Assembly: GCA_902533625.1 (NCBI GenBank)
Contig: CACAMI010000003.1
Coordinates: 37,431-101,430 of the forward strand
Direction of reading: 5' to 3'
Length of the DNA: 64,000 bases
From: an uncultured Alphaproteobacteria bacterium
GTDB lineage: Bacteria; Pseudomonadota; Alphaproteobacteria; Rhodobacterales; Rhodobacteraceae
Of this stretch, positions 1,659-37,190 are shown piece after piece (position 1 is the first letter of the stretch; each line of letters begins with the position of its first letter). A program made the position numbers and the translations under genes. The notes beneath the pieces are model-generated. The model was not told the origin of the DNA and ran no database searches. It saw only the letters and a program-made list of their open reading frames with translations.

Positions 1659-1669
1659 ATAATTTAACT

Positions 1670-7847: not shown

Positions 7848-9001
7848 TGGTAGATAAAACTTTTTTACACTGGCCATTTTTTGGTGATGATCATCGAGAT
7901 GTGCGATTACGATTAAAGGAATTTATTTCAAGGGAACTTTGCGTAGTCGATCATGGTAATATAGATCAGGCTTGCAAAAAATTAGTGTCAGCCTTAGGAG
8001 GGGCCAATTTTCTAATGTATACAGGTGATCCGACGGGAAAACTAGATGTTCGGACACTTTGCTTGATAAGAGAAACCCTTGCCTATCATGATGGACTAGC
8101 TGATTTTTCTTTTGCCATGCAAGGATTAGGCTCAGGTGCAATATCCTTATATGGATCAGAAGAGCAAAAACAGGAATGGTTGACCAAAACTCGAAATGGA
8201 AAGGCGATAGCAGCGTTTGCGCTGACTGAACCTCAGTCTGGATCTGATGTTGCAAATTCTACTATGACCGCCATAAAGGACGGAAACCAATTTGTCTTGA
8301 ATGGTGAAAAAACTTGGATATCTAATGGAGGTATTGCGGACTTTTATACAGTCTTTGCTAGGACAGGTGAGGGACCGGGGGCAAAGGGGTTGTCTGCTTT
8401 TATTGTTACTCCCGAGGTTCAGGGCTTTGATGTTATTGAACGCTTAGAAACAATTGCTCCACATCCCCTGGCCCGATTGAAATTTTCTGATTGTAGGATC
8501 CCTGCGACTTCAATGATTGGAGAGGCTGGTGAGGGTTTTAAAATTGCTATGTCAGTTCTGGATATTTTTAGATCTTCTGTCGGTGCGGCTGCACTTGGCT
8601 TTGCCCGCCGAGCTCTTGATGCTACCCTTGCCCGTGTGGAAAGTCGTGAAATCCAAGGTTCAAAATTATCAGAAATGCAAATGATACAGGCTCATATCGC
8701 TGACATGGCAATAGCGATTGATACTAGTGCACTCTTAGTTTACCGGGCGGCTTGGGCAAAGGATCAGGGCCAGGACCGTATAACGCGAGAGGCAGCAATG
8801 GCCAAATTCCATGCAACAGAGGAGGCACAAAAAGTTATTGATATGGCGGTTCAAATTCATGGTGGTGATGGAGTTAAGAGCGGTTTTTTGGTTGAAAAAC
8901 TTTACCGGGAGATACGGGCCCTCCGAATTTATGAGGGTGCAAGCGATGTACAGAAGATTATTATGGCTCGCCAAGTATTAGCAGAAGAGATAGGAGTATA
9001 A
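7847..9001 (+). CDS. Acyl-CoA dehydrogenase
   Basis: ALTEPQSGSD, GEKTWISNG, IHGGDG and YEGASDVQKIIMAR blocks. TAATG overlap with the upstream gene. Confidence 0.85.
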   Translation: MVDKTFLHWPFFGDDHRDVRLRLKEFISRELCVVDHGNIDQACKKLVSALGGANFLMYTGDPTGKLDVRTLCLIRETLAYHDGLADFSFAMQGLGSGAISLYGSEEQKQEWLTKTRNGKAIAAFALTEPQSGSDVANSTMTAIKDGNQFVLNGEKTWISNGGIADFYTVFARTGEGPGAKGLSAFIVTPEVQGFDVIERLETIAPHPLARLKFSDCRIPATSMIGEAGEGFKIAMSVLDIFRSSVGAAALGFARRALDATLARVESREIQGSKLSEMQMIQAHIADMAIAIDTSALLVYRAAWAKDQGQDRITREAAMAKFHATEEAQKVIDMAVQIHGGDGVKSGFLVEKLYREIRALRIYEGASDVQKIIMARQVLAEEIGV

Positions 9002-9004
9002 ATA

Positions 9005-10624
9005 ATGTTAAGTCCCTCAGCACATATTGATACATTTGCCAGAGATAACTTGCCCCCAGTGGATCAGTGGCCTGAATTTAATCTTGAAATGTTTGATTAT
9101 CCTGACCATCTGAATGCAGCTTTTGAGCTAACCGACAAAATGGTTTCTGCAGGTTTTGGCGATAATACAGCTTTGATTGGAAATGGAAGGCGCCGAACCT
9201 ATAAGGAACTTACGGACTGGTCAAACAGGCTTGCTCACGCTTTGGTGGAGGATTTGGGTGTTAAGCCTGGCAACCGAGTATTAATTCGGTCAGCGAACAA
9301 CCCAGCCATGGTTGCTTGTTGGCTGGCTGCCACAAAGGTGGGAGCAGTGGTAGTAAACACAATGCCATTATTGCGTGCGGCCGAGCTTAGAAAATATATT
9401 GAAATGGCTAAAATAGATTTTGCACTATGCGACAGTCGTTTATCTGAGGAAATGAGAGCTTGTGAAGAGGATTTTCCTAAACTTATGGTAAAAGAATTTG
9501 ACGGCACTTCAAACCATAATGCCGAACTTGACCAGTTAGCCTTGGAAAAACCGGTACAGTTTCATTCAGTCAAAACCGGTCGCGATGATGTAGCTCTTTT
9601 AAGTTTTACTAGTGGGTCAACAGGAGAACCTAAAGCGACCATGCATTTTCATCGTGATTTAATGATCGTCGCAGATGGGTATGCGAAAGAAGTTTTAAAC
9701 GTTTCAGAGACAGATGTATTTGTAGGCTCACCGCCTTTGGCATTTACATTCGGTTTGGGAGGTTTGGCAATTTTCCCACTTCGCTTTGGTGCAGCAGCAA
9801 CACTTTTAGAAGATGCTTCGCCTCCAAATCTTATTGAAATTATTCAAAAGTATAAAGCAACTGTATGTTTTACTGCACCGACAGCTTATCGTGTGATGTT
9901 ACAAGCGATGGATGAAGGGGCAAATCTTTCCAGCTTACGTGCAGCTGTCAGCGCTGGTGAAACCTTGCCTGCTCCAATTTATGAAGACTGGAAAGCAAAG
10001 ACAGGAAAACCGATGCTAGACGGGATAGGAGCGACCGAACTTTTGCATATTTTCATTTCTAATAGATTTGAGGATCATAAGCCGTCTTGTACAGGAAAAC
10101 CGGTCACAGGATATGAGGCTAAAGTGGTTAATGAGCACGGACAAGATGTCCCTGAAGGTGAAATTGGTCGGTTAGCAGTGCGTGGACCTACGGGTTGCAG
10201 GTACCTTAATGATAAGCGTCAGAAACTTTATGTTATAGATGGATGGAATATTACTGGAGATAGTTTTTCACGCGATTCAGAGGGTTATTTTCATTTTGCG
10301 GCCCGAAATGATGACATGATTATCTCTTCTGGTTACAATATTGCGGGGCCGGAGGTGGAGGCAGCTCTTTTAGCACATGAAGCCGTCTCTGAATGTGCAG
10401 TTATAGGAATTCCTGATGAAGAGAGAGGAGAGATTGTAGAAGCACATATTGTGTTGAATGGCGAAAAGATTGGGGATCAAACTCTAACAAAGGCATTACA
10501 AGATCATGTTAAATCTATAATAGCACCCTATAAGTATCCCCGCTCAATAATTTACAAAAAGACTTTGCCTAAAACTCAGACTGGTAAAATTCAAAGATTC
10601 CGATTAAAAGCAAACCACAAGTAA
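9005..10624 (+). CDS. abmG: Aryl-CoA ligase, 2-aminobenzoate(anthranilate)/benzoate-CoA ligase-like
   Basis: AMP-binding signature FTSGSTGEPKATMH, GWNITGD, PKTQTGKIQR. Operon context with the monooxygenase/reductase fusion. Confidence 0.7.
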   Translation: MLSPSAHIDTFARDNLPPVDQWPEFNLEMFDYPDHLNAAFELTDKMVSAGFGDNTALIGNGRRRTYKELTDWSNRLAHALVEDLGVKPGNRVLIRSANNPAMVACWLAATKVGAVVVNTMPLLRAAELRKYIEMAKIDFALCDSRLSEEMRACEEDFPKLMVKEFDGTSNHNAELDQLALEKPVQFHSVKTGRDDVALLSFTSGSTGEPKATMHFHRDLMIVADGYAKEVLNVSETDVFVGSPPLAFTFGLGGLAIFPLRFGAAATLLEDASPPNLIEIIQKYKATVCFTAPTAYRVMLQAMDEGANLSSLRAAVSAGETLPAPIYEDWKAKTGKPMLDGIGATELLHIFISNRFEDHKPSCTGKPVTGYEAKVVNEHGQDVPEGEIGRLAVRGPTGCRYLNDKRQKLYVIDGWNITGDSFSRDSEGYFHFAARNDDMIISSGYNIAGPEVEAALLAHEAVSECAVIGIPDEERGEIVEAHIVLNGEKIGDQTLTKALQDHVKSIIAPYKYPRSIIYKKTLPKTQTGKIQRFRLKANHK

Positions 10625-15986: not shown

Positions 15987-16910
15987 TTAATCAGGAACCT
16001 CTCCCCCGTTTTCTAACCAATACCGACAGTCAAAACTTAGGGATTTTTTTGTTGCAGCCTCGTAAAGCTGTAACTCTTCCTCTGCTAGTAAATCTCTCCA
16101 TCTACCATTTATTCCTTCATTTAAAAAAGTCTTGCCCCCCCCTTTCCAACTATTGCCACCATCTGGTACATATGAGTCTGCATTAGCCCGCATTGCCTCA
16201 AAACTTATAGAGTTTTGCACATTTTTTATTTCATCTGATGTAATTTCAATCTCTAAAAAGGATGCTACTTTCTTTATACAAGAAAACAGATCCTTTTTCA
16301 TATCAGCATAGTGAAGAAAAATGATATTAGGTAAATCTCTATAATCCCACCAAGACTGCACTCCGCTTAGATGAGACCAAAAAGGATAACCGTCATTCTC
16401 CCAATCAAACCAGCCTTTTGTGCACCAGTTTCTCCAAAAAATCTTAAAATTTGCGGGTGGATTAGGAAACTTATCACCCACTAAATTTGGCAGATTATTA
16501 ATACTCTCGTAAACAGCATCTGTATAGTTTAGGTAGTGGTTCCATATCGATAAAGCCACATCTCTTCCATCTCGGCCCACATAAATATATTTAATTTTGG
16601 GGAAAAATGATAAGGCATTTAAGGGAAGATGGGTTTTCAGAAAGCGTCTATGTTTCTGTTGATTTATTTCCTTCATTACTAATTCAATTGGAACACTTCT
16701 GTCATCAATCCATGGACTTAGCTCTGAAACTTTTTTTGGGAATTTATTATTAGGAAATAATAAATGGGCAACAAGAGCCTGAGTCCAAGTGGTGCCAGTC
16801 TTCATAGTTGAAGCGATACAAATGTCGTCTACCCGTGGTTCATAGGTTAACCACCTTTCACTGTCTATATGGTGGTTTTGATAAATTATATCTTTACTCG
16901 GATAATCCAT
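15987..16910 (-). CDS. Cytosolic-type (Sulfotransfer_1) PAPS-dependent sulfotransferase, copy A
   Basis: 5'-PSB loop MKTGTTWTQ, catalytic-His block LKTHLP, RDGRDVALS, and a 3'-PB-like NEGINGRWRDL. Confidence 0.8.
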   Translation of the reverse strand: MDYPSKDIIYQNHHIDSERWLTYEPRVDDICIASTMKTGTTWTQALVAHLLFPNNKFPKKVSELSPWIDDRSVPIELVMKEINQQKHRRFLKTHLPLNALSFFPKIKYIYVGRDGRDVALSIWNHYLNYTDAVYESINNLPNLVGDKFPNPPANFKIFWRNWCTKGWFDWENDGYPFWSHLSGVQSWWDYRDLPNIIFLHYADMKKDLFSCIKKVASFLEIEITSDEIKNVQNSISFEAMRANADSYVPDGGNSWKGGGKTFLNEGINGRWRDLLAEEELQLYEAATKKSLSFDCRYWLENGGEVPD

Positions 16911-18192: not shown

Positions 18193-18816
18193 CTAACTTA
18201 TAAAAAGTTCTGAATCCGTCATTGCTCGGTACTTTTTGAGGCCATCCTGTATAGATGAGACATTTATAATAGCACTTTCGCAATTAATGTGGCTATTGGG
18301 TTGCCAGGCTCTTACAAATACGCTCATTCTATCTGTAAATGTGCCTGGGAAAACGCCGTATCTTTCGCCTTTGTCTTCTATTTTCCTATAAAAAGCATTC
18401 AACATTATAGTACCGCAGTCTCGGCAGAAAAGCCTTCCTATTCCACCGACCCTGGGGCTATCGTCAAAAGTTCGATAATTAGGATTTCCAGGTCCACCTT
18501 TTACTTGTTGTAGATGGTTAAGGCCTTCCAAAACAGTTATTTCAAAGTTGCCAGATTTCTTTTTTCCCGTACGACAATCTATGTTTGCGGTGCTACAGTA
18601 TATTACTTGATACATTGGTGCCGAGTGAGCTCGTCTACACGACCAGCAATGACAAAAAGCGGACATTTCTGGTGATTGCGTTTTAATATTGATCCTTACG
18701 GCACCACATATGCACATGGCCTGAGCTTCAGATTTGTCGCCAGAGGGATAAATTTTTTCTGAGAGAGAAACATCATCATGAGGATTAATTTGGCTTTCCA
18801 TATTTATATTTCTCAC
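18193..18816 (-). CDS. GFA (glutathione-dependent formaldehyde-activating enzyme)/CENP-V family zinc protein
   Basis: Cys-rich GFA pattern CICGAVR...FCHCWSCRRAHS and a second site CRDCGT. The start is either the GTG at 18816 (4-nt overlap with the upstream gene) or the ATG at 18801. Confidence 0.7.
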   Translation of the reverse strand: MRNINMESQINPHDDVSLSEKIYPSGDKSEAQAMCICGAVRINIKTQSPEMSAFCHCWSCRRAHSAPMYQVIYCSTANIDCRTGKKKSGNFEITVLEGLNHLQQVKGGPGNPNYRTFDDSPRVGGIGRLFCRDCGTIMLNAFYRKIEDKGERYGVFPGTFTDRMSVFVRAWQPNSHINCESAIINVSSIQDGLKKYRAMTDSELFIS

Positions 18817-19124
18817 CCACGCTTTGCATTTTTAGTAAGTGAATTTACATAATGTAAGCTAACTTCACCTTGCATATGCCAATGGTCTTTAAAAACATTG
18901 GGGAAACCATCTAGCATTCGTTGCCTTGCCTCCAACAATCTTTCAGCGGTTTCTTCGTCTTTATAAATAGCAACTGACATACCAGATGAAGGTCCTGTTC
19001 TTATCAATATATGGGCGTTAGCTTCTGGCAGAGCCTTAGGGCAAACAATCTTATATTCATCTTCGAATTCGTCGGCCACCTGCTCAGACATATACTCAAC
19101 CATTGTTATTCTAGCCACAGTCAT
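18813..19124 (-). CDS. Small (103 aa) hypothetical protein, possibly a ferredoxin-like/ABM fold; paralogue of 19269..19577
   Basis: Shares the core T-x-P-S-S-G-M-S-x-x-I-Y-x-D-E-x-T with the neighbouring 102-aa ORF. The fold assignment is only a guess from size and pattern. Confidence 0.4.
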   Translation of the reverse strand: MTVARITMVEYMSEQVADEFEDEYKIVCPKALPEANAHILIRTGPSSGMSVAIYKDEETAERLLEARQRMLDGFPNVFKDHWHMQGEVSLHYVNSLTKNAKRG

Positions 19125-19268: not shown

Positions 19269-19577
19269 TTACTGATATTTACTGTATTCTAGGTTATTGC
19301 TGACAACTGATGAAACTTCTGCTTCTAGAATTGTTGTATGGACAATACTAGCTGACCATTCCTTAAAAACCTTATCACGGTCATCCGCCCCAATTTCAGA
19401 AGTTTTCTCATCCGGATATATTGTAAGACTCATTCCTGAAGACGGTGTGGTTTTAAGCACGTTGAATGAAACTGCAGATCCAAAAAGTTTCTTTCCATTT
19501 TGTGACAAAAACCCCAACATTTTTTCAGTCTCATTCTCATCGATAAAGTCAATCATTACGACTCTTCCCACTAACAT
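19269..19577 (-). CDS. Small (102 aa) hypothetical protein, paralogue of 18813..19124
   Basis: TTPSSGMSLTIYPDEKTSE versus TGPSSGMSVAIYKDEETAE in the neighbour. Same length and strand. Confidence 0.4.
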   Translation of the reverse strand: MLVGRVVMIDFIDENETEKMLGFLSQNGKKLFGSAVSFNVLKTTPSSGMSLTIYPDEKTSEIGADDRDKVFKEWSASIVHTTILEAEVSSVVSNNLEYSKYQ

Positions 19578-19680: not shown

Positions 19681-20604
19681 ATGTCTTGCTTTAATCTGGA
19701 AGATGCCCCCATTCGTCGTTATCAGCATTTGGACTGGGATTCAGGACGCTGGACTGGTTTCAAACCTAGGTCGGGTGATATCTATATTTGCACTTGTTAT
19801 AAATCAGGTACTACATGGACACAAATGATTGCAGCACTTCTCGTATTCCAAGAATTGGACTTCCCATTGCCTTTGAACGAATTATCTCCTTGGATTGATT
19901 TGGTGACGGATAGTACTGAAGAAATGCATAAAAGATTATCGGCTCAGAAGTATAGACGAATCTTGAAAACGCATACTCCCCTTGACGGGTTAAAATGGCA
20001 TGCTGATGCAAGATATCTATTTGTTGGGCGTGATCCACGAGATGTATTTGTTTCTATGATGAACCATCAAGATAATACGGATGTGCATGTTGAACGTAAA
20101 CTAGCTGCGGAAATGGGGAATCAGATAACGATCACTGATCTATTGGCAGATACGGAAGAGGAGCGGTTGAAGGATTGGTTGACTAGGGGTTACTTCGAAT
20201 GGGATAAAGATGGTTATCCCTATTGGTCTTTATTGCATCACGGGGAAACCTTTTGGCAGCATCGCAATCAGGAAAACATTCTAGTCCTTCATTACGGTGA
20301 AATGAAAAATGATCTGAATCGCGAAATGCGAAAAATTGCTGCGCACCTTTCTATAGAGATAGACGAAGAAATTTTTCCGGGTCTAGTTGAAGCCGCTAGT
20401 TTTGCATCAATGAAGAGAAACGCGGATGATCTCGCACCTGCGGCAGATGCAAATTTATGGAAGAATAATTCTGAATTCTTTGCAAATGGTACTAATGGTC
20501 AGTGGCAGGATCGCTGGAGTAAAGCAAATCTCCAGAGGTTATACGCTCTCTCTAATGAATACTCCATTGACTACATGGAATGGCTTTTAGAGAAAAAAAA
20601 TTAG
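19681..20604 (+). CDS. Cytosolic-type PAPS-dependent sulfotransferase, copy B
   Basis: YKSGTTWTQ (5'-PSB), LKTHTP (catalytic His), RDPRDVFVS, ANGTNGQWQDRW (3'-PB-like). Colinear along its length with copy A and also 307 aa. Confidence 0.8.
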   Translation: MSCFNLEDAPIRRYQHLDWDSGRWTGFKPRSGDIYICTCYKSGTTWTQMIAALLVFQELDFPLPLNELSPWIDLVTDSTEEMHKRLSAQKYRRILKTHTPLDGLKWHADARYLFVGRDPRDVFVSMMNHQDNTDVHVERKLAAEMGNQITITDLLADTEEERLKDWLTRGYFEWDKDGYPYWSLLHHGETFWQHRNQENILVLHYGEMKNDLNREMRKIAAHLSIEIDEEIFPGLVEAASFASMKRNADDLAPAADANLWKNNSEFFANGTNGQWQDRWSKANLQRLYALSNEYSIDYMEWLLEKKN

Positions 20605-20654: not shown

Positions 20655-21464
20655 TTATATCTTTTTGAAGTCTCCGTGCCTACCTGCACCTTCAGAAAAA
20701 CGCTTAGCACCTTTGAGGCCTTCATTTTCAATAGCCTGGAGGCCATGTTCCCACTCAAACTCAAGCCCTTGTCGAACCGACATTCCGTGAGTTGCAATAA
20801 TAGAAGCTCGATCAGCTCGAACTGCTTCCTGAGGAAAGCGGGCAATTTCGTTCGCTATTTCTTCAGCTATTTTGCGCGCCTGGCCTTCCGGAGTAATCCT
20901 TTCACATAAACCTATCTGATAACATTCATCGGCAGGCACTTTCCGGCCAGTCATAGCAATTTCAAGTGCCTTACCTTGTCCAACCAATCGTGGCAAACGA
21001 ACTGTTCCACCATCTACCAAGGTAATGCCCCATCTTCGGCAATAAACTCCAAGGTAAGCATTCTTAGCCATTACTCGCATGTCGCACCACATTGCCAACT
21101 CCATACCTCCTGCAACTGCGGCACCTTCTATTGCACCTATTACTGGTTTTGTAAGTTCCAACCTAGTTGGGCCTAAACCACCTCTCGGAGTGGGTGTGCC
21201 ATCCTTAGGAAATGAAAGAGATTCAAATTCTGATTTGAATTTTTCTTCGTTGGCCAGAGAAGCAGCATACTTCAAATCCCAACCAGAGCAAAAATTACCT
21301 CCCTCTCCCCATAATACTGCGGTACGAGCCATGGCGTCGTTTTCGAATTCCATAAATGCATCCATTAAAGCTTGAGCAGACTCTGGATCCATTCCGTTCC
21401 TTACTTCTGGACGAGAATGGATAACGGTCCATACATGAAGTTTTTTTTCAATTCTCACAGACAT
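20655..21464 (-). CDS. Enoyl-CoA hydratase/isomerase (crotonase) family protein
   Basis: AIEGAAVAGGMELAMWCDMRV core. Strong AGGAGG SD before the ATG at 21464. Confidence 0.8.
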   Translation of the reverse strand: MSVRIEKKLHVWTVIHSRPEVRNGMDPESAQALMDAFMEFENDAMARTAVLWGEGGNFCSGWDLKYAASLANEEKFKSEFESLSFPKDGTPTPRGGLGPTRLELTKPVIGAIEGAAVAGGMELAMWCDMRVMAKNAYLGVYCRRWGITLVDGGTVRLPRLVGQGKALEIAMTGRKVPADECYQIGLCERITPEGQARKIAEEIANEIARFPQEAVRADRASIIATHGMSVRQGLEFEWEHGLQAIENEGLKGAKRFSEGAGRHGDFKKI

Positions 21465-21688
21465 TTCTCTCCTCCTTTAGTGGCTGACATTTGGCTCCAA
21501 GTATCTTTCTAAAAGTGCTGTTTTAATAAAAGGTTTCTTAAAATTACCATATGCCATTAATAATCTAATGAAATTTTTAGTGTGTAAATCAAATTTTTTA
21601 TCTTAATCCGATCAAATATATATAGTATAATTAATGAACTCTGATAGTATTTGATGATTAATATAGAAATCTTAGGGGTAGAGTGAAT

Positions 21689-22924
21689 ATGGTTTTAATT
21701 CCCGAAATGCCAGCTGTTGGACGTGGTTTCATTAGTCGGTTAGAACCACCTAATATTGAAGAATATTCTTGGATAAGTCCTAAGGCTTCTAAGGATCGTA
21801 GGGTTTCCGTGGTTTCAACAGCAGCAGTCTCAAACCGTGGAGAGAAACCTTTCTCTTGGTTGGCGAGAGATTATAGGACAATTAAAAAAAACGATAGAGA
21901 TTTGGTAATGACCCATGTTGCTGCTGAGTATGATCGTACTGCATGGCAACAAGATTTAAATACAATTATACCCTTAGACCGGTTGGAAGAAATGGCTTCT
22001 GAAAGGGAGATTGGATCGGTAGCTGAAAATCATTATGCTTTTATGGGTGCTGCTGACCCCCGTGATATGGAAAAATATGCTCTAGAAGTAGCAGGGAAAA
22101 TGAAGCAAGAAGCTGTAGATACAGTTTTTCTTGTTCCCGTCTGACCATTTTGTACGCGCGCCGTGTGCGGGCTCGCCCACATATTTGAATCTCAAGGTTT
22201 TTCTACGGTTCTTGTCGGCTTTGTCAGGGAACATATCGAGGTAATTAAGCCTCCACGAGGTTTGTGGTTAAACTTTCCGATGGGACGTCCTATGGGAAAG
22301 CCCAATGACCCAAAATATCAAAAGAAAGTAATTCGTGCAGCTTTTAATTTACTTGAAGCAAAATCAGGACCAGTTCTTGAAGATTTTCCAGATGAAATTC
22401 CTGTAAAACATGGAAGGATGGGTTATGCACTTCCGGTAGATCTAGTAACTAAAGTAAGTGAAATTGGTGACGTTGATCAATTATTGGAAGAAGTAGAGGC
22501 TGAGGTTTCAAGCCTTCACTCAGCTTATGTAAGTGGAAAAGCCTTTCGTGGAAGAACTACAGTAGGAGCTAGTGAAATGCCTATAAAAGAACTTCCTAAT
22601 TTCATAGCTGCTTTTGTAAAGGGGCAGAAACCGAACAGTCCAAGAAAAGGTGTTACAGCTATCCCTCAGCTTAAGCTGGTGGTGGAGGATTTGAACGCCT
22701 ATTACACTGAGGCAAGAATGTACGAAGACAATATTGACGATTTTGAAATTCTTGGTAAGTGGTTTTGGGAAGAGTCGAAGGCTGGAAAATTAATTTTGGC
22801 TTTAGAAGCAGTTTCTTTAGAGAGTGAGGATAAAGTTCTTCGGCAGATAGTGGAAATGTCCCTAATTACTCCCCGGTTTTGGTCTGAAGGCCCTCTTCCT
22901 GGCACTTCTGCTTCCGGATGGTAA
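21689..22924 (+). CDS. Glycine/sarcosine/betaine/D-proline reductase protein-B (GrdB/PrdB) family protein with an in-frame TGA (22142-22144), predicted selenocysteine, in a U-P-F-C motif
   Basis: Track ORFs 21683..22144 and 22163..22924 share a frame and are separated by only one stop (TGA). Read-through gives ...AVDTVFLVPV-U-PFCTRAVCGLAHIFESQGFSTVLVGF.... A GC-rich hairpin follows the TGA. Confidence 0.65.
22145..22185 (+). promoter_or_regulatory. Candidate bacterial SECIS hairpin downstream of the in-frame TGA
   Basis: Locally GC-rich CGCGCGCCGTGTGCGGGCTCGCCCAC in an AT-rich genome. Pairing 22163-22167 with 22178-22182 and 22169-22170 with 22176-22177, bulged C22168, 5-nt loop GCTCG about 27-31 nt after the TGA. 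Folded by eye only. Confidence 0.4.
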
Positions 22925-22948
22925 AAATAAAAAACTTGCCCATGCAAG
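22923..22948 (-). terminator. Weak rho-independent terminator candidate for the rhodanese gene (between convergent genes)
   Basis: The minus strand reads CTTGC-ATGG-GCAAG followed by TTTTTTATTTTT. The stem is only 5 bp. Confidence 0.35.
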
Positions 22949-22968
22949 CTTTGAAACTTTGCTAATTG

Positions 22969-23862
22969 CTACAATTTATCTGTTTCTATAGGAAGGGTTT
23001 CATCCATTGCCCATTCACTCATAGAATTGTCATAAATCTGCAAGTTTTTAAATCCTAGCTGATAAAGAATAAAAGCATCGAGAGTAGCCGCTATCCCTCC
23101 TCCGCAGTAATTTAAAATTGTCTTGTCCGAAGAAATATCCATTGAATTAAAGATTTCAGCAGCCTCCTCTGGTTTTTTGAACTTACCTGTATTAGAGTCT
23201 ACAAGCTTATGAAAAGGAATATTCAAACTATTAGGTATTCTTCCGGGGCGGCCATATCTTGGATTTTCACCTGAATGGATATCTTTTGTTAATGCATTTA
23301 AAAGTATGCAGGACTTGTCCCCTATGGCCTTAAGAGTAGATTCCTTTCCGACAAAAATATTTTCTCTAAAGCTAGTGTTAAATTTTGCAGGATTAAATTT
23401 TCGGACACTATCTTCAGTTGGTAAGTCTAATCTGACCCACTCATCATATCCGCCATCCAATACAGAAATTTTTTCAAACCCCAATACAAAAAGCATCCAC
23501 CAAACCCGTGTTGCCCATTGCGTACCATTTCTAGAATATAAGACAATGTGAAAAGGATCGCCAACGCCTAGATTTTGAAACCTATTTTTTAGATCTAAGA
23601 AGCCTGGTAAAGTGAAACTATAGGGGCTTTCTTTTTTGGACAGATCATTCTGAAGATCTAAGAATGCAGAGCCAGGAATATGTGACTCTCTATATTTGGA
23701 AATACCACTTTCGACATCGTACGGTTTGCTAGGATCTTTGTCCCTATATAATAGGTAGGTTGTGCAGTCGAATACTCGAATGTTTTCATTATCAAGTCTC
23801 TTAGAGAGCCATTCACACTGTACGATATTCTCAGGATATTTCCATGTAACATCATTTTCCAT
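22969..23862 (-). CDS. Two-domain rhodanese sulfurtransferase (thiosulfate/3-mercaptopyruvate sulfurtransferase, SseA-like)
   Basis: 297 aa with tandem rhodanese domains. The active-site loop CGGGIAA in the C-terminal domain resembles the MST-type CG[SG]G[VI]TA. Confidence 0.8.
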   Translation of the reverse strand: MENDVTWKYPENIVQCEWLSKRLDNENIRVFDCTTYLLYRDKDPSKPYDVESGISKYRESHIPGSAFLDLQNDLSKKESPYSFTLPGFLDLKNRFQNLGVGDPFHIVLYSRNGTQWATRVWWMLFVLGFEKISVLDGGYDEWVRLDLPTEDSVRKFNPAKFNTSFRENIFVGKESTLKAIGDKSCILLNALTKDIHSGENPRYGRPGRIPNSLNIPFHKLVDSNTGKFKKPEEAAEIFNSMDISSDKTILNYCGGGIAATLDAFILYQLGFKNLQIYDNSMSEWAMDETLPIETDKL

Positions 23863-23888
23863 TAGGTCCCTTTCAAGTCTCTTTGCTT

Positions 23889-24293
23889 TTAAATTGGGTT
23901 AAGGTCGTAGTCATCATCTAACACCTGTTCCAACCAATCAGCCACCTTGCCATCCAAAGCTTCCTGAATAGCCAGATGTTCCATATTTGAATCTGGGGCA
24001 GCCCCGTGCCAATGCTCTTCACCTGGAGGGATCCAAACTGTATCTCCTACATTAATTATTTTTGGAGATTCATTTCGGAGACCTACTAAACCAACGCCAC
24101 TTAGCACTAAAAGAGTTTGCCCCAAGGGATGGGTGTGCCAAGCTGTCCGCGCTCTAGGTTCAAATGAAACTTTTATTGCTCTTACCCGTGCTGGATCCGG
24201 TGCTTCTATAATAGCATCTTGCATAACATTTCCATGAAACCAATCGGATGATGCTTTTCTTTGAGGCCTGCTCCCAACTTTAAATATTTTCAA
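23889..24293 (-). CDS. Cupin-domain protein
   Basis: Cupin motifs WHTHPLGQTLLVLSG and GDTVWIPPGEEHWHGA. 4-nt overlap with the upstream TfdA-like gene. Confidence 0.7.
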   Translation of the reverse strand: MKIFKVGSRPQRKASSDWFHGNVMQDAIIEAPDPARVRAIKVSFEPRARTAWHTHPLGQTLLVLSGVGLVGLRNESPKIINVGDTVWIPPGEEHWHGAAPDSNMEHLAIQEALDGKVADWLEQVLDDDYDLNPI

Positions 24294-25198
24294 TATTCTA
24301 CCTCAGCCTTTTTAATGTTTAAAAGGGTTGGAATATTTGGCACCCCATCTTTTTCAGTTAGAGACACACAGATGCTAGCCAATGTTCTTGGCTCGGTATA
24401 TGACCAGGGGCGACCTCTATGCAAAATAGACCGTTCATCCCAAATCAATACGTCTCCTACCTCCCAATCATGGGAGTACACATATTTATCCTGCGTTGCA
24501 AAACAAATTATATCTTTAATTACTTTCTCTGAATCTTTTTCGGACATGCCTTCTATTTGGTAGACGTGTGAGGCTATATAAATTGATTCTGCACCAGTTA
24601 CCGGGTTCTTAATAATTGAGTCCCATTCCTGAGGTTTCCATCTTGATATTTTATGAGATTTTGCTAATTCCTCATCAATTTTTTTCCTTGATTGCATAAA
24701 ACTATGGAAGAATTTTTTATTCTTTATTTTTTCTAGAATATTCTTTGGCAATTCGTTAAGAGCAATTCTAGTTGAGGCGAGTTCTGTTTGCCCGCCAGAG
24801 GAAGGTACGGTTTTAGCTGCAATAATATTTGCCAAAGCTGGGATTGGCAAAAATGTACTGTCGGTGTGCCAAAGCATGTTTGCCTTGAGTTCAAGGGTCC
24901 GCATATCATTTTCTGAAAAAACAGTACCATCTGCATCCTCGTTTGAGACTTTTGGAAGCTCAAATTTCACATAAGAGTTTTTTGCCATAGCCTCTCTATT
25001 TTCAAGTGGCCCAAAAAGGCTTGCAAACTTTATATGGGTCTCCTCTGAAAACTCTTGATCTTTAAATAGAATTGATGAATGTTTCTCGAACAAATCTCTT
25101 ATTTCGGGATAGAGATTATTATTTGTAACATCGTCTAAGTTTATTCCATCAATTATTACGCCAAATTTCGGGTGAAGAGGAATAGTTTTCATAATCAT
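24290..25198 (-). CDS. TfdA/TauD-family Fe(II)/2-oxoglutarate dioxygenase
   Basis: HxD iron motif in WHTDSTF, followed by VPSSGGQTELAS (TfdA-like). Distal His in SILHRGRP. Confidence 0.8.
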   Translation of the reverse strand: MIMKTIPLHPKFGVIIDGINLDDVTNNNLYPEIRDLFEKHSSILFKDQEFSEETHIKFASLFGPLENREAMAKNSYVKFELPKVSNEDADGTVFSENDMRTLELKANMLWHTDSTFLPIPALANIIAAKTVPSSGGQTELASTRIALNELPKNILEKIKNKKFFHSFMQSRKKIDEELAKSHKISRWKPQEWDSIIKNPVTGAESIYIASHVYQIEGMSEKDSEKVIKDIICFATQDKYVYSHDWEVGDVLIWDERSILHRGRPWSYTEPRTLASICVSLTEKDGVPNIPTLLNIKKAEVEY

Positions 25199-26083: not shown

Positions 26084-27400
26084 CTAATCACCAGGTATCC
26101 AACTTGTACCTGCCAGAGGGACACCAGACATTGCCGCGGCCTCTACGGTAAGAGCACAAAGGTCTTCAGGTTCTAAGTTTCTAAGATCGTTTTTTCCACA
26201 TGCCCGAGCAATAGTCTGTGCCTCCATCGTCATTACTTTAAGAAAATTTGCTAGACGCCTTCCTCCTTCAACAGGATTTAATCTTTTCATTAACTTAGGA
26301 TTCTGAGTCGTGATCCCAGCAGGGTCATTACCTTCATGCCAATCGTCGTAAGCTCCTGCTGTTGTTCCCAATTTCTGATAATCTTTCTCAAATTTAGGAT
26401 CATTATCTCCAAGTGCAATTAAGGCGGCTGTACCTATGGAAACTGCATCCGCACCTAGTGCCATAGCTTTTGCAACGTCAGCACCATTTCTAATACCTCC
26501 TGAGACAATTAATTGTACTTTTTTATGAACCCCTAATTCTTGCAAGGCTTCCACTGCTGGCTTTATGCAAGCTAAAGTAGGGATGCCTACATGTTCGATA
26601 AATACTTCCTGGGTAGCCGCAGTTCCTCCTTGCATACCATCAATAACAATTGCATCTGCTCCCGATTTTACTGCTAGTGCAATGTCATAAAAAGGTCTAG
26701 CTGCCGCCACTTTAACCAAAATAGGAACTTTCCATGAAGTTATTTCCCTTAGCTCGAGTATTTTAATTTCCATATCATCAGGTCCAGTCCAATCCGGATG
26801 ACGGCATGGTGAGCGTTGATCTATACCCTTTGGTAATGTCCTCATCTCAGCTACTCTATCACTAATTTTTTGACCGAGAAGCATACCGCCTCCCCCTGGT
26901 TTTGCCCCTTGGCCTACTACTATTTCTATTGCGTCTGCTTTTCTAAGATCGTCCGGGTTCATACCATACCTAGATGGCAATAGTTGATAAATAAGTTTAT
27001 TAGAATGGCCTCGCTCTTCCTTTGTCATCCCCCCATCCCCTGTGGTAGTAGATGTTCCTGCAATTGTAGCGCCTCTTCCAAGAGCTTCCTTTGCTCGGCC
27101 AGAAAGTGCTCCAAAACTCATCCCTGCTATAGTTATAGGAATATCAAGGTGAAGAGGATTTTCTGCATTTTTATCACCAATTGTCACCTTTGTATTACAG
27201 GACTCTCTATAACCTTCCAAGGGGTAGCGGGATATTGAAGCTCCAAGAAAAAGCAAATCGTCAAAATGTGGGAGACGTCTCTTTGATCCGCCACCTCTGA
27301 TATCATATATACCCGTTTGAGCAGCTCGCCGGATTTCTGAATTGGTATATTTATCGAAGAGATTTGACTGTCTAGGGAAAGTTTGGGGTAACTTAGTCAT
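26084..27400 (-). CDS. FMN-binding glutamate-synthase-domain protein (GltB central domain homologue; MgsC/GlxD-type)
   Basis: 438 aa. GQGAKPGGGG, PDDMEIKILELRE, VIDGMQGGTAAT, SGGIRNGADVAKAMALGADAV match the FMN/synthase domain of GltB (compare 51939..56648 in this window). Confidence 0.85.
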   Translation of the reverse strand: MTKLPQTFPRQSNLFDKYTNSEIRRAAQTGIYDIRGGGSKRRLPHFDDLLFLGASISRYPLEGYRESCNTKVTIGDKNAENPLHLDIPITIAGMSFGALSGRAKEALGRGATIAGTSTTTGDGGMTKEERGHSNKLIYQLLPSRYGMNPDDLRKADAIEIVVGQGAKPGGGGMLLGQKISDRVAEMRTLPKGIDQRSPCRHPDWTGPDDMEIKILELREITSWKVPILVKVAAARPFYDIALAVKSGADAIVIDGMQGGTAATQEVFIEHVGIPTLACIKPAVEALQELGVHKKVQLIVSGGIRNGADVAKAMALGADAVSIGTAALIALGDNDPKFEKDYQKLGTTAGAYDDWHEGNDPAGITTQNPKLMKRLNPVEGGRRLANFLKVMTMEAQTIARACGKNDLRNLEPEDLCALTVEAAAMSGVPLAGTSWIPGD

Positions 27401-27410
27401 AAAGTATCTC

Positions 27411-28082
27411 CTAATATGTGTTGTCTATTTTAAAATTGTACAGACTTCTTGCAGATCCATAGCGGCGAAAATCTTTTGAGGAAAGGTTCTTTATTTTTGC
27501 AATTGCTAAAAGTTTTGTGAGTAATTTTTTATGCTTTTCTGTCATTTGTTTTTCAATACAGTCGGCACCAAGAGACTTCACTTCACCTAATATGTAAATA
27601 TTTGCTTCATAAATGCTATCACCCAAAGCTTCCCCTGCATTTCCACAAACTACTAAATTTCCAGCCTGTGCCATAAAAGCCGACATATGACCAACATTTC
27701 CTTGAACGATTATATCTATACCTTTCATTGAAATACCACATCTTGAAGAGGAATTTCCTTCTATAACGAGGGTTCCCCCGTGAGCTGATGCCCCTGCATA
27801 TTGGCTAGCATTACCTTTTACATATATACTTCCTGACATCATATTTTCTGCAACACCAGGTCCTACCGACCCGTGAACTACAACATCTGCATTTTTATTC
27901 ATCCCCCCACAGTAATATCCAACGCTTCCCTTAATATCCACTTTTAGTGATTCCCTTAGACCAGCAGCTACTGCATGCTTTCCCATGGGGTTTTCTAATA
28001 CCCAGCTTGTTTCAGATGAGGCATTCTGCAAGGCAGAATTTACGTGTCTAAGCGAAAGTGATTTTAAATCCAAAACAGTCAT
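27411..28082 (-). CDS. GXGXG-motif protein (GltB C-terminal beta-helix domain homologue; MgsB/GlxC-type)
   Basis: 223 aa with repeated G-x-x-G-x-G-x-G beta-helix turns (GSVGYYCGGGM.., HGSVGPGVAENM, GNASQYAGASAHGG, GNVGHMSAFMAQAG). Confidence 0.8.
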   Translation of the reverse strand: MTVLDLKSLSLRHVNSALQNASSETSWVLENPMGKHAVAAGLRESLKVDIKGSVGYYCGGMNKNADVVVHGSVGPGVAENMMSGSIYVKGNASQYAGASAHGGTLVIEGNSSSRCGISMKGIDIIVQGNVGHMSAFMAQAGNLVVCGNAGEALGDSIYEANIYILGEVKSLGADCIEKQMTEKHKKLLTKLLAIAKIKNLSSKDFRRYGSARSLYNFKIDNTY

Positions 28083-28981
28083 TTATTATGTTCCCAAAAA
28101 TAAACTGTTGCTGGTTCTGGTTCCCATACTTTTGCTTTTTCAATGTATGGCAAAGAAGCCAAAGCTCTATATTCAGAGCCAAAAGCAACGTATTGATCTG
28201 TCTCGGCCAGTACTGCTGGTTTACATGCTATGGGATCTCTGAGTACGCCAAATCCTTTTTCAGTACCAACAACAAAAGTATAAAAGCCATCTAAATCTTT
28301 TAGAGCTAAGTCGAGTGCTTGTCCAAGATCGGCGCCTGTGCTCATTTTGTTAGTCAAGTAGGAGGCTGCAACTTCTGTATCATTTTCCGTCTCGAATGAA
28401 ATATTTTTTTTCTGGAGTTCGCGTCTGAGGGTATTATGATTAGATAAAGAACCATTATGAACCAGACATTGATCTTTGCCAGTTGAAAATGGGTGCGCTC
28501 CTAAAGTAGTTACAGCTGATTCAGTAGCCATTCTAGTGTGGCCGATTCCATGAGATCCCCTCATTTTTCTAATATTAAACCGCTCCACAACACTTTCTGG
28601 AGCTCCTACTTCTTTGTAGATTTCAATATTTGATCCTGTACTCATAAGCCTGATTTTTGGAAAGTGTTTCTTTAGATCATTGATGATTAAATTTGAATTC
28701 TTTTCCGAAAGCTCCAAAACCGCATGGGTAGAGTTAATCTTAAGTTGTGTTTTAAGATTTTTCTGCTTGGAGAGATATGAATTCAATTTTGGGAAGCCGT
28801 CTGAGGGTTCTTCTGACTGAAGGGTGACTTTAATTTTATTACCATTACTTTTTTTGTAAACAGCTACTCCCGCGCTATCAGGTCCACGGTCACTCATAAT
28901 AACCAACATATCAGAAAGAAGTTTACCTAAACTATCTTCTACCGACCGTGTTTTAGCAAATAAACCAACTATTCCACACAT
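28079..28981 (-). CDS. Class II (Ntn) glutamine amidotransferase-domain protein (MgsA/GlxB-type)
   Basis: MCGIVGLF N-terminus (the Cys1 nucleophile requires the start at 28981). GGAG SD 7 nt upstream. HTRMATES and HNGSLSNH blocks. 4-nt overlap with the GXGXG gene. Confidence 0.85.
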   Translation of the reverse strand: MCGIVGLFAKTRSVEDSLGKLLSDMLVIMSDRGPDSAGVAVYKKSNGNKIKVTLQSEEPSDGFPKLNSYLSKQKNLKTQLKINSTHAVLELSEKNSNLIINDLKKHFPKIRLMSTGSNIEIYKEVGAPESVVERFNIRKMRGSHGIGHTRMATESAVTTLGAHPFSTGKDQCLVHNGSLSNHNTLRRELQKKNISFETENDTEVAASYLTNKMSTGADLGQALDLALKDLDGFYTFVVGTEKGFGVLRDPIACKPAVLAETDQYVAFGSEYRALASLPYIEKAKVWEPEPATVYFWEHNK

Positions 28982-29029
28982 ATATTTCTCCAAAAAGGGA
29001 TTAGCAAATAAGTATTTATAAGCTTTATA

Positions 29030-29635
29030 TTATATCAGCTCAGGCAGGCCTTTTACGACACCTTCCTGAATAAAATCAGGCTTATAGGGTGGCCTTGTGA
29101 ATACTTCTTTTATCATTGGTTTAAAGAATTTCAAGGATTTACTGTCATAGTTTGGATCGAATGCAGTCTGATCCCATCTCTCACAAAAATCAGAGCATGA
29201 TTGAAAATAAATGTTGTCTTTAAATCTATCTCTAGCATTCTGATCCCATCCATAATGATGAGCATAGTAGATCATTTGAAAGATTCCGTGGTGCTCTATT
29301 ACCCAAGTTACTTCTTCCCTTAAATAGGGTCTAACAACTTCGGCAGAAAACCTATCATGGTTTTGAGGAGCTAGTGCGTCTCCAATATCATGTAAAAGAG
29401 CGCCCACTATCCAGTCTATATCAGCTCCTTCGTTAAATGCGCGGGTGCCTGATTGCAGACCATGTTCAAGTCTAGTAATTCTATACCCTTCCAAGGTATT
29501 GTTGCCTTGGCGCTCGAGCTCTTCAATTATCCTTTCATACGTTAGAGCAACATAGGTTTTCTCTAATTTTTGTAGCAAAAGATAATCATCTTTATCTCCG
29601 TGTTTCATCTCAGTAAACTTAACTAGTTCATCCAT
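29030..29635 (-). CDS. HD-domain protein with a PhnZ/TmpB/MIOX-like (mixed-valent diiron oxygenase-type) ligand pattern
   Basis: Ordered ligand candidates EHGLQ, LLHDIG, NHD, IEHHG, ERWDQTAFD parallel the PhnZ pattern EHSLQ/LLHDLG/QHE/EGH/WDE as I recall it. GGAG SD before the ATG at 29635. 48 nt upstream of the amidotransferase gene on the same strand. Confidence 0.6.
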   Translation of the reverse strand: MDELVKFTEMKHGDKDDYLLLQKLEKTYVALTYERIIEELERQGNNTLEGYRITRLEHGLQSGTRAFNEGADIDWIVGALLHDIGDALAPQNHDRFSAEVVRPYLREEVTWVIEHHGIFQMIYYAHHYGWDQNARDRFKDNIYFQSCSDFCERWDQTAFDPNYDSKSLKFFKPMIKEVFTRPPYKPDFIQEGVVKGLPELI

Positions 29636-29875
29636 ATTATCTCCGATACTTTCATGTTGGTTACTGGACTTAATTATCAAAAAATATGAAACTCATTTTA
29701 CCAAAACTTCATTCAATCACCAAGGTGTTTATTGGCTCAACGATTTTCATTATGTATAAATATTTTCTTTTGTACTTAATTATGGAAGATATATTAGATA
29801 ATGTTAGTGTAAACATAAGGATAAAAGCTCTTGGAAGAAAATAGTTACAAAAATAGTGAAACTGCACCTCCAATA

Positions 29876-36898: not shown

Positions 36899-37043
36899 TA
36901 GTTTCCTTAGTCTCAGATTATTTTTCAAATGTAACTTATAGTTCTATCCATAAAACTGACAAAGGAATAATAGTTTTATTTTGGTCCATAAGAGAATTTA
37001 TTCCTTGAAATGCAAAATTTAGTGTAATACCTTCTAGCAAAGT

Positions 37044-37190
37044 ATCGGGAGAAACTGATTTCTCAGTGCCGAAGGAGCAACCACCCCGGAAACTCTCAGG
37101 AAAAAAGGACCGTTACTTTTTTTTACTCTGGAGAGAGGCCAGATATGGTCCGCCGAAGGGATAATGATCTCAGGCAAATGAACAGAGGGG
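37044..37190 (+). ncRNA. Tandem (two-aptamer) glycine riboswitch upstream of gcvT
   Basis: Aptamer 1: CGGGAGA...GCCGAAGGAGCAA...CTCTCAGGAAAAAAGGACCG. Aptamer 2: CTCTGGAGAG...GCCGAAGGGATAA...CTCAGGCAAATGAACAGAG with P1 CTCTG/CAGAG. Both carry the conserved GGAGA/ACCGAAGG.GCAA/CUCAGGCAAAAGGAC-type cores. It lies directly 5' of the glycine cleavage operon. Confidence 0.85.

What the first reader, a model, noticed from the sequence alone, without database searches (positions are those of the whole stretch)
20655..25198. The GrdB-like (seleno)protein is an orphan with none of the canonical reductase partners, and sits among oxygenase, crotonase and rhodanese genes
Clostridial glycine/sarcosine/betaine and D-proline reductases need selenoprotein A (GrdA), a pyruvoyl proprotein (GrdE/PrdA), GrdC/GrdD and a thioredoxin system. 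I see no small CxxU/GrdA-like ORF, no GrdE/PrdA-like gene and no thioredoxin or thioredoxin reductase within at least 20 kb. Instead the gene is monocistronic. It is divergent from a crotonase (20655..21464) and convergent with a two-domain rhodanese (22969..23862) plus a TfdA-like dioxygenase and cupin pair. The surrounding window is full of O2-dependent enzymes, so the host is an aerobe. That is an unusual setting for this strictly anaerobic Stickland-type enzyme family and implies a different, uncharacterised function, possibly a thiol/selenol-dependent reductive C-N or C-S cleavage or a redox role.
Basis: inference. Interest (0 to 1): 0.7.

Follow-up and report, generated by a model that had tools for sequence, protein, structure and literature searches.

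The report
Orphan PrdB-like marine selenoprotein gene
This is a real selenocysteine-containing gene from a very large marine family that databases label "D-proline reductase", but it lacks that enzyme's partner proteins, carries an extra domain, and in most close relatives sits beside the whole selenocysteine-insertion machinery, so its real function is still unknown.

Summary
Window 21689..22927 (+) is one 412-codon gene with an in-frame TGA at 22142-22144 (motif V-U-P-F-C). A conserved hairpin follows the TGA. Opposite-strand genes flank it on both sides. No GrdA, GrdE/PrdA, GrdC/D, thioredoxin or thioredoxin reductase occurs anywhere in the 64 kb.

Three corrections apply. The protein is PrdB-like rather than GrdB-like, and has an added ~185-residue C-terminal region. 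That region contains a helical bundle with no Pfam or PDB match. The crotonase, rhodanese, cupin and TauD neighbours occur only in this lineage, so they say nothing about function. The family also occurs in anaerobes.

All 81 loci examined, the window plus 80 from different species, keep the TGA. No full-length Cys form was seen. The window's clade mixes marine Alpha- and Gammaproteobacteria. In it, 26 of 34 species have tRNA-Sec next to the gene and 25 have selA and/or selB. Only 2 of 46 distant relatives have tRNA-Sec nearby.

The family has been listed as "proline reductase PrdB", one of the most abundant ocean selenoproteins, since 2005. It has never been characterised. The most likely function is a stand-alone Sec/Cys reductase with an unknown substrate.

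The parts
21689..22927 (+). PrdB-like selenoprotein gene: 412 codons read through one UGA, with a TAA stop at 22925-22927
   Evidence: The frame is continuous across the TGA. Homologues start at MVLIPEMP. Database gene callers split the gene into a 151-aa piece and a 253-aa piece everywhere.
22142..22144 (+). In-frame UGA read as selenocysteine 152, in the motif V-U-P-F-C(155)-T-R-A
   Evidence: TGA sits at the aligned codon in all 81 loci: the window plus 80 loci from different species. The flanking residues PV-U-P-x-C-T are conserved.
22152..22176 (+). SECIS-like hairpin: a 3-bp and a 7-bp stem, with a loop carrying invariant G22 and U23. It starts 8 nt after the UGA.
   Evidence: 79.6% of cells are paired, against at most 49.6% for slid controls. 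Compensatory changes occur at pairs 16-30 and 17-29. The DNA is invariant at synonymous sites across distant loci.
21689..22357 (+). PrdB-like catalytic domain (about residues 1-223), spanning the Sec codon
   Evidence: NCBIfam TIGR04483 PrdB matches in one stretch, profile positions 25-219 of 238, at 86.7 bits. Pfam GRDB scores 35 bits. A 243-aa paralogue in L088 ends where this domain ends.
22472..22855 (+). Family-specific C-terminal helical bundle (about residues 262-389), absent from PrdB and GrdB
   Evidence: The AlphaFold2 model of the post-TGA part has mean pLDDT 86.5 and six helices. No Pfam hit appears at E up to 10. No Foldseek PDB match reaches E 0.001. A PDB profile search found nothing.
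21465..21688 (.). AT-rich divergent intergenic region shared with the crotonase gene; presumed promoter region
   Evidence: Sequence. Promoter-like sites are no more frequent than in shuffled sequence, so no promoter is assigned.
22931..22952 (.). Hairpin in the 41-bp gap between this gene and the convergent rhodanese gene
   Evidence: A terminator-like site with a 9-bp stem and a T-run, scored on the minus strand.

Best explanation
The gene encodes a cytoplasmic, stand-alone selenoenzyme. It descends from the selenoprotein B subunit of the Stickland reductases (PrdB/GrdB) but works without their pyruvoyl and GrdA partners.

**Translation (shown).** UGA 22142-22144 is decoded as Sec152 with the help of the hairpin immediately downstream.

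**Catalysis (inferred).**
- The Sec152 selenolate attacks an electrophilic centre of a small substrate. This could be a C-N, C-S or C-Se bond, or an oxidised S or Se centre. The substrate is held by the PrdB-like domain and covered by the family-specific helical domain.
- Cys155 then resolves the adduct as a selenenylsulfide.
- A cellular dithiol re-reduces the selenenylsulfide. Candidates are thioredoxin, glutaredoxin/glutathione or a dihydrolipoyl protein.

The substrate is unknown, and it is not D-proline presented on PrdA.

**Role in the genome (inferred).** In marine aerobic Alpha- and Gammaproteobacteria this protein appears to be the main client of the selenocysteine machinery, and the two are often inherited together.
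For: **Sec decoding**
- TGA is conserved in all 81 loci examined, with coding conservation on both sides.
- A hairpin with compensatory changes follows the TGA.
- In the window's clade, tRNA-Sec is adjacent in 26 of 34 species, selA and/or selB in 25 and selD in 9. Only 2 of 46 distant loci have tRNA-Sec nearby.

**PrdB-type chemistry**
- PrdB homology runs continuously across the Sec codon.
- The U-x-x-C motif is the one the literature gives for PrdB and GrdB.
- No full-length Cys form appeared in any listing: the best 120 hits of each of three searches, the best 150 representative clusters, or the 80 fetched loci. This argues that selenium itself is needed, as in carbon-centred selenoether chemistry.
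- Many invariant polar residues (His, Asp, Arg, Tyr, Gln, Glu) suggest a small-molecule active site.

**Stand-alone operation**
- No partner gene is conserved across 81 loci apart from the sel genes.
- Seven distinct Pfam-annotated contexts contain no GRDA, Gly_reductase or thioredoxin.
Against: - There is no biochemical evidence of any kind.
- The selenenylsulfide cycle and the reductant are inferred from the motif alone.
- No substrate can be named.
- The N-terminal half could not be modelled (pLDDT 42.7), so no active-site geometry is available.
- Partners encoded elsewhere in these genomes could not be excluded, because whole genomes were not searchable.
- Linkage to the sel genes would also fit a role in selenium supply.
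Confidence: 0.45

Rival explanations
1. It is a general thiol/selenol redox or antioxidant protein, such as a disulfide, peroxide or sulfoxide reductase. The U-x-x-C motif would act like a thioredoxin-type redox centre, with no carbon-centred chemistry.
For: - The U-x-x-C motif is shared with many redox selenoproteins that are abundant in oxic seawater.
- The host is aerobic.
- A cytoplasmic BisC-type molybdopterin oxidoreductase is adjacent in a few loci: L001-L003/L011, L032 and L035.
Against: - Redox selenoprotein families normally have many more Cys homologues than Sec forms. Here no Cys form was seen.
- The fold is PrdB-like, not thioredoxin-like.
- The molybdoenzyme link is seen in only a handful of loci.
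Confidence: 0.2
2. It works in selenium trafficking. It would release or reduce selenium, for example from organoselenium compounds or selenotrisulfides, and hand selenide to SelD. That would explain why it sits beside selD, selA, selB and selC, and beside a rhodanese in this window.
For: - The gene lies next to the sel genes in most of its clade, directly beside selD in 9 loci, and beside a SelD fusion in L090.
- A two-domain rhodanese is convergent with it in the window.
Against: - In selenoprotein-rich anaerobes the gene is almost never near sel genes (2 of 46). This fits the 'main client' reading better.
- The rhodanese neighbour is confined to one lineage.
- The window's lineage keeps the gene with no sel genes within 64 kb.
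Confidence: 0.12
3. It is a true D-proline or glycine-type reductase B subunit, and its PrdA/GrdE, GrdA and electron-transfer partners are encoded elsewhere in the genome.
For: - Homology to PrdB at E = 1.6e-24.
- Databases name the fragments 'D-proline reductase (dithiol) PrdB'.
Against: - It scores 86.7 bits against the PrdB equivalog cut-off of 300, and 42.5 against 65.45 for the selenoprotein B subfamily.
- It has an extra ~185-residue C-terminal region.
- No PrdA/GrdE/GrdA-type gene is near it in 81 species.
- The hosts include aerobic heterotrophs such as Roseovarius aestuarii.
Confidence: 0.06
4. The TGA is a genuine stop. The locus would then be a pseudogene or two separate small genes, and the selenoprotein reading would be an artefact.
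For: - Every gene caller splits the locus into two ORFs.
- The second ORF starts at a conserved GTG 18 nt after the TGA.
Against: - TGA, never TAA or TAG, is present in all 81 loci.
- The six codons between TGA and GTG are conserved as P-x-C-T-R-A, with synonymous changes.
- A single PrdB profile match spans the junction.
- A hairpin follows the TGA.
- tRNA-Sec, selA and selB are linked to the gene.
Confidence: 0.02

Closest known systems
PrdB, the selenoprotein subunit of clostridial D-proline reductase (NCBIfam TIGR04483)
   Same: - Homologous over almost the whole PrdB length, profile positions 25-219 of 238.
- Sec lies in a U-x-x-C motif at a similar position, near residue 152. The canonical position is from my own recollection.
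- Presumably uses the same Sec nucleophile and resolving Cys chemistry.
   Different: - Scores 86.7 bits against a 300-bit cut-off.
- Is 412 aa rather than about 240 aa, because of an added C-terminal region with a helical bundle.
- No PrdA pyruvoyl proprotein or PrdC-F genes were seen in the window or in the roughly 8-10 kb flanks of the related loci.
- Found in aerobes.
GrdB/GrdF/GrdH, the selenoprotein B of glycine, sarcosine and betaine reductases (Pfam PF07355, NCBIfam TIGR01918)
   Same: - Same Pfam family, above the gathering score (35 against 22 bits).
- Same U-x-x-C motif.
   Different: - Only the last ~75 of 347 Pfam columns match, so the N-terminal half of GrdB is absent.
- The TIGR01918 score is 42.5, below the 65.45 cut-off.
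- No GrdA, GrdE or GrdC/D.
The marine 'proline reductase PrdB' selenoprotein family from the Sargasso Sea and GOS selenoproteome surveys (PMC1088965, PMC2398784, PMC9402790)
   Same: - Same description: pfam07355, U-x-x-C motif, very abundant in surface-ocean metagenomes and strongly Sec-biased (42 Sec to 1 Cys; 235 Sec to 110 Cys).
- The window's gene is almost certainly a member.
   Different: - Those surveys file it under clostridial PrdB.
- They do not mention the missing PrdA, the extra C-terminal domain or the linkage to selA, selB, selC and selD.
- Sequence identity to their set could not be checked here.
Short 243-aa PrdB-like selenoprotein paralogue in a Clostridiales MAG (L088 4869-5600, minus strand)
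   Same: - Same core, and a U-P-L-C motif matching the window's U-P-F-C pattern.
- Also without a PrdA neighbour.
   Different: - Lacks the C-terminal domain.
- Scores higher against PrdB: 178 bits against 87.

Membership tests
D-proline reductase PrdB (TIGR04483 equivalog) | Scores at or above the curated equivalog cut-off of 300 bits | tested here: not met
   86.7 bits for the window protein and 100.8 bits for a distant family member.
D-proline reductase PrdB (TIGR04483 equivalog) | Selenocysteine (or Cys) in a U-x-x-C motif | tested here: met
   V-U-P-F-C at residues 151-155, conserved as U-P-x-C in nearly all 81 loci (L078 reads U-L-L-C). The literature gives the motif as UxxC.
D-proline reductase PrdB (TIGR04483 equivalog) | Encoded with the PrdA pyruvoyl proprotein and other prd genes | tested here: not met
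   None in the 64-kb window. No recurrent PrdA-sized neighbour within about 8 kb in 80 other species. None in the Pfam-annotated contexts. Whole genomes were not searched.
D-proline reductase PrdB (TIGR04483 equivalog) | Single-domain protein of about 240 aa | tested here: not met
   412 aa, with an extra C-terminal region that has no known family.
D-proline reductase PrdB (TIGR04483 equivalog) | Reduces D-proline to 5-aminovalerate with a dithiol donor | not testable with these tools
   Needs an enzyme assay.
Glycine/betaine/sarcosine/D-proline reductase selenoprotein B subfamily (TIGR01918) | Scores at or above the subfamily cut-off of 65.45 bits | tested here: not met
   42.5 bits.
Glycine/betaine/sarcosine/D-proline reductase selenoprotein B subfamily (TIGR01918) | Full-length GrdB architecture of about 435 aa, including the N-terminal half | tested here: not met
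   The Pfam GRDB match covers only profile positions 272-345 of 347. GrdH and GrdF matches start at profile positions of about 260-272.
Glycine/betaine/sarcosine/D-proline reductase selenoprotein B subfamily (TIGR01918) | Accompanied by GrdA, GrdE and GrdC/D | tested here: not met
   Absent from the 64 kb. No CxxU in-frame TGA gene is present.
Pfam GRDB superfamily (PF07355) | Scores above the Pfam gathering threshold of 22 bits | tested here: met
   35 bits, E = 1.3e-08. The precomputed PF07355 annotation is on nearly all listed N-terminal fragments.
Bacterial selenoprotein (SelB/SECIS-dependent UGA decoding) | In-frame UGA conserved among homologues, with coding conservation downstream | tested here: met
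   TGA in all 81 loci. The downstream 253 aa are 26-99% identical across the family.
Bacterial selenoprotein (SelB/SECIS-dependent UGA decoding) | Stem-loop immediately 3' of the UGA | tested here: met
   Hairpin at +11 to +35 from the UGA. 79.6% of cells are paired against at most 49.6% for slid controls. Loop G and U are invariant, and there are 11 doubly changed cells. No Rfam SECIS model matched.
Bacterial selenoprotein (SelB/SECIS-dependent UGA decoding) | selA, selB, selC and selD present in the same genome | tested here: inconclusive
   Not in this 64-kb window, and the rest of the genome is not available. They are adjacent to the orthologue in most of the clade.
Bacterial selenoprotein (SelB/SECIS-dependent UGA decoding) | Cys-containing homologues align with the Sec position | tested here: not met
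   No full-length Cys form appeared in the best 120 hits of each of three searches, the best 150 representative clusters or the 80 fetched loci. The GOS survey reports 110 Cys homologues for 'PrdB' broadly.
Marine 'PrdB' selenoprotein family of the Sargasso/GOS surveys | pfam07355, U-x-x-C motif, marine metagenomic origin, Sec-biased | tested here: met
   All four descriptors fit. Near-identical copies occur on Tara Oceans contigs. Direct sequence comparison with the surveys' set was not possible.

The most novel reading that the evidence does not exclude
This PrdB-like protein may be the reason that abundant aerobic marine Alpha- and Gammaproteobacteria (roseobacters, SAR116, Granulosicoccaceae and others) keep selenocysteine decoding at all. 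It would travel between classes as a compact island of selA, selB, tRNA-Sec, sometimes selD, and the client gene. It would catalyse a reaction that strictly needs selenium, since no Cys forms were seen, and that has nothing to do with Stickland fermentation. One candidate is an oxygen-compatible reductive cleavage of a common marine amine or osmolyte, using a dithiol donor such as the neighbouring GcvH lipoyl protein. If so, a large share of ocean 'proline reductase' annotations would be wrong, and a new selenoenzyme reaction would be waiting to be found.
Probability: 0.25. Interest if true: 0.8.

Novelty: new member of a known kind. Interest (0 to 1): 0.45.

Why it matters
Surveys count this family as about 6% of all selenoprotein genes in the surface ocean, under the name "proline reductase". 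The evidence here shows that name is unsafe:
- the pyruvoyl partner is missing;
- the curated PrdB and GrdB-family thresholds are failed;
- an undescribed C-terminal domain is present.

Its tight linkage to the full selenocysteine machinery in one marine clade suggests that it drives selenium demand in common aerobic bacterioplankton. Identifying its substrate would explain why these organisms pay for selenocysteine decoding. Roseovarius aestuarii KCTC 22174 is a cultured strain that carries both the gene and the island, which makes the question experimentally approachable.

Tried and rejected
- **Exact-sequence lookup.** Looking up the crotonase in public assemblies found nothing. The window itself is not in the collection. 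The closest contigs are 89-92.5% identical in DNA.
- **Full-length protein submissions.** I expected structure prediction, which carries the same restriction, to refuse it too, so the two halves were analysed separately.
- **N-terminal model.** The AlphaFold2 model of the N-terminal half failed (pLDDT 42.7). It was not used or searched.
- **C-terminal model.** The C-terminal half modelled well (pLDDT 86.5), but Foldseek against the PDB gave only chance helical-bundle hits, best E = 1.4.
- **PDB sequence searches.** Searches with the protein and with profiles gave nothing meaningful.
- **Pfam on the C-terminal region.** Scans at E up to 10 gave nothing in three diverse members.
- **Rfam.** No SECIS family matched, even at E up to 10. 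Single-sequence folding of the region was no better than shuffled sequence (z = -0.12). The hairpin only becomes convincing across 81 sequences.
- **Related-locus search.** It failed with the 25-sequence alignment and worked with 9 closer sequences.
- **Viral contigs.** No relative was found.
- **Promoter and terminator scans.** Counts were no higher than in shuffled sequence.
- **Rhodanese, TauD, cupin and crotonase as partners.** Considered and rejected, because they occur only in this lineage.
- **GcvH, GcvT-like and GMC oxidoreductase neighbours.** These occur in a few related loci (GcvH in 5, GcvT-like in 6). They were considered as clues to a glycine or betaine link. They were left as weak leads, because those loci share ancestry and the gcv genes may simply flank the sel island.
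- **Literature.** Searches for 'PrdB-like', and for PrdB combined with Roseobacter or Alphaproteobacteria, found no functional study.

Full report
**1. What is in the sequence**

The two ORFs listed at 21683..22144 and 22163..22924 are one reading frame broken by a single TGA at 22142-22144. Translated through, the junction reads ...TVFLVPV-U-PFCTRAVCGLAH....

Homologues begin at MVLIPEMP. The start is therefore ATG 21689, and the gene spans 21689..22927. That gives 412 codons, with Sec at residue 152 and Cys at residue 155.

Family scans give the following:
- Pfam places the protein in GRDB (35 bits against a cut-off of 22), but only the last ~75 of 347 profile columns match.
- NCBIfam matches the D-proline reductase PrdB model nearly end to end, profile positions 25-219 of 238, in a single stretch that crosses the TGA. 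The score is 86.7 bits against a cut-off of 300.
- The broader selenoprotein B subfamily model scores 42.5 bits against a cut-off of 65.45.

The protein is therefore PrdB-like rather than GrdB-like, and it carries about 185 extra C-terminal residues.

- a divergent crotonase;
- a convergent two-domain rhodanese;
- a cupin;
- a TauD/TfdA dioxygenase.

**2. Absence of canonical partners**

I ran Pfam on every non-overlapping ORF of 70 aa or more across the whole 64 kb. None of the following was found: GrdA, GrdE/PrdA, GrdC/D, thioredoxin, thioredoxin reductase. A scan for in-frame TGA codons with redox motifs found only the one at 22142 inside a real gene.

The window encodes many oxygen-dependent enzymes:
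- tryptophan 2,3-dioxygenase;
- a Rieske oxygenase;
- TauD;
- a HalD-like oxygenase;
- homogentisate dioxygenase;
- FAD monooxygenases;
- an AlkB-like desaturase.

The host is an aerobic heterotroph. Its DNA is 89-92.5% identical, and collinear, with a marine MAG labelled Rhodobacteraceae bacterium NP970. The same arrangement recurs on Tara Oceans contigs.

**3. It is a genuine selenoprotein**

Five lines of evidence support this.
- **Split fragments everywhere.** Three database searches and one exhaustive representative search returned thousands of relatives. The listed best hits are pieces that end at the TGA (151-154 aa, a few longer through upstream start calls) or pieces of about 240-255 aa that start just after it.
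- **TGA is universal.** In 80 loci fetched from different species, plus the window, the aligned codon is TGA in all 81. The motif is (L/I)-x-P-V-U-P-x-C-T-(R/H/S)-A-V.
- **DNA-level conservation.** The 20 nt downstream of the TGA are conserved even at synonymous sites.
- **A hairpin follows the TGA.** It starts 8 nt after the TGA. Across 74 distinct sequences, 79.6% of cells are paired, against at most 49.6% when the partners are slid. Loop G and U are invariant, and compensatory changes occur at two pairs.
- **No Cys form.** No full-length Cys-containing form appeared in any listing, which is unusual for a selenoprotein family.

**4. The real genomic context**

I clustered all ORFs within about 8 kb of the gene in the 81 loci. 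The window's neighbours are shared only with its own lineage.

The recurrent neighbours are the selenocysteine machinery. The table gives counts for the window's clade (34 species, 52-98% identical) and for the 46 more distant loci.

| Neighbour | Window's clade (34) | Distant loci (46) |
|---|---|---|
| selA and/or selB | 25 | 1 |
| selD | 9 | none seen |
| tRNA-Sec | 26 | 2 |

The same arrangement appears in Pfam-annotated contexts and in a complete 4.5-Mb genome. The distant loci come from Dehalococcoidia, Desulfobacterales, Chloroflexota, Clostridiales and other Alphaproteobacteria.

A neighbour-joining tree shows the window's clade as a tight, long-stemmed group in which Alpha- and Gammaproteobacteria are intermixed. 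This fits transfer of the gene, probably together with the machinery. The window and its nearest relatives are exceptions: they keep the gene but have no sel genes within 64 kb.

No PrdA, GrdE, GrdA or thioredoxin neighbour appeared in any context. Weaker, lineage-limited neighbours are GcvH, a GcvT-like protein, GMC oxidoreductases and a BisC-type molybdoenzyme. I treat these as leads only.

**5. Structure**

- The post-TGA half modelled well (pLDDT 86.5). It consists of a short alpha/beta segment that completes the PrdB-like domain, followed by a six-helix bundle.
- The bundle has no Pfam family, no PDB sequence relative and no significant Foldseek match.
- A 243-aa paralogue in a Clostridiales MAG ends where the bundle would begin and scores higher against PrdB. 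The bundle is therefore an addition specific to this family.
- The N-terminal half could not be modelled alone.

**6. Mechanism**

Sec decoding and PrdB ancestry are shown. The following steps are inferred:
- Sec152 acts as the nucleophile.
- Cys155 resolves the adduct as a selenenylsulfide.
- A cellular dithiol re-reduces the selenenylsulfide.

The total absence of Cys forms favours chemistry that truly needs selenium, such as the selenoether step of the Stickland reductases, over simple disulfide exchange. The contrast in sel-gene linkage (26 of 34 against 2 of 46) favours the reading that this protein is the main client of the machinery in marine aerobes, rather than a selenium-supply factor. 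The substrate remains unknown.

**7. Comparison with what is known**

The selenoproteome surveys of the Sargasso Sea (2005), GOS (2008) and the wider ocean (2021) list 'proline reductase PrdB' (pfam07355, UxxC) among the most abundant marine selenoproteins. It is strongly biased towards Sec. Later reviews keep the clostridial description.

The kind is therefore known as a predicted family, and the window's gene is a new member of it. None of the papers searched mention three things:
- the missing PrdA;
- the extra domain;
- the linkage to the sel genes.

**8. Verdict**

The orphan status and the separate clade are right. The functional reading of the local neighbours and the 'aerobe-only' framing are not. 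Interest is moderate: the family is old news as a list entry, but its annotation is probably wrong and its function is an open, testable question.

Noticed in passing
window 37036-41656: A glycine riboswitch (Rfam, 54.5 bits) lies upstream of gcvT, gcvH and gcvP. In several relatives, gcvH or a gcvT-like gene lies directly beside the PrdB-like/sel island. The 15-kb distance here may be a remnant of that arrangement.
   Followed up: partly
window 26084-29680 (-): A trio of a class-II glutamine amidotransferase, a GXGXG protein and an FMN glutamate-synthase-like protein. From my own knowledge this resembles N-methylglutamate synthase subunits. Next to it is an HD-domain protein with weak similarity to phosphonate and TmpB-type oxygenases.
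   Followed up: partly
window 720-10624, 43575-50162 and 59218-60420: A dense set of aromatic amino acid catabolism genes. It includes tryptophan 2,3-dioxygenase, two alpha/beta hydrolases and kynureninase. It also includes an FAD-monooxygenase/old-yellow-enzyme fusion with a CoA ligase, enoyl-CoA hydratase and acyl-CoA dehydrogenase (an anthranilate-CoA type route). Homogentisate dioxygenase, fumarylacetoacetase and a zeta-type GST complete the set.
   Followed up: no
window 18813-19124 and 19269-19577 (-): Two adjacent ORFs of about 100 aa that look like paralogues (shared motif PSSGMS-x-x-IY-x-DE). Neither has a Pfam or NCBIfam match. They are conserved in the sister contigs.
   Followed up: no
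window 15987-16910 (-) and 19681-20604 (+): Two paralogous cytosolic-type sulfotransferase genes flank a Rieske oxygenase and a GFA-domain protein. The Rieske protein's best NCBIfam match is GbcA, the glycine betaine monooxygenase, but far below its cut-off.
   Followed up: partly
L088 4869-5600 (-) (Clostridiales MAG JAGXRM010000055.1): A second, short (243 aa) PrdB-like selenoprotein with a U-P-L-C motif, in the same locus as a long-form member. It sits among a deiodinase-like protein, a DsbD-like membrane protein and Lgt, and also has no PrdA nearby.
   Followed up: partly
L090 11245-13437 (-): SelD is fused to a pyridine-nucleotide disulfide oxidoreductase domain (730 aa), directly beside the PrdB-like gene, selB and selA, in a complete 4.5-Mb genome.
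   Followed up: no
L038 (MAG labelled Flavobacteriales) compared with L010 and L012 (alphaproteobacterial single-cell genomes): The three loci show the same gene order over the stretch examined. In the 69 nt compared at the TGA, L038 and L012 are identical to L010. The Flavobacteriales label is probably a binning error.
   Followed up: no
all related loci; window 22142-22165: Public gene calls split this selenoprotein into two 'genes' everywhere. The second always starts at a conserved in-frame GTG (Val159), and the downstream half is mostly unnamed or labelled 'hypothetical protein'. Counts of this family in databases are therefore doubled, and its C-terminal region goes unrecognised.
   Followed up: yes
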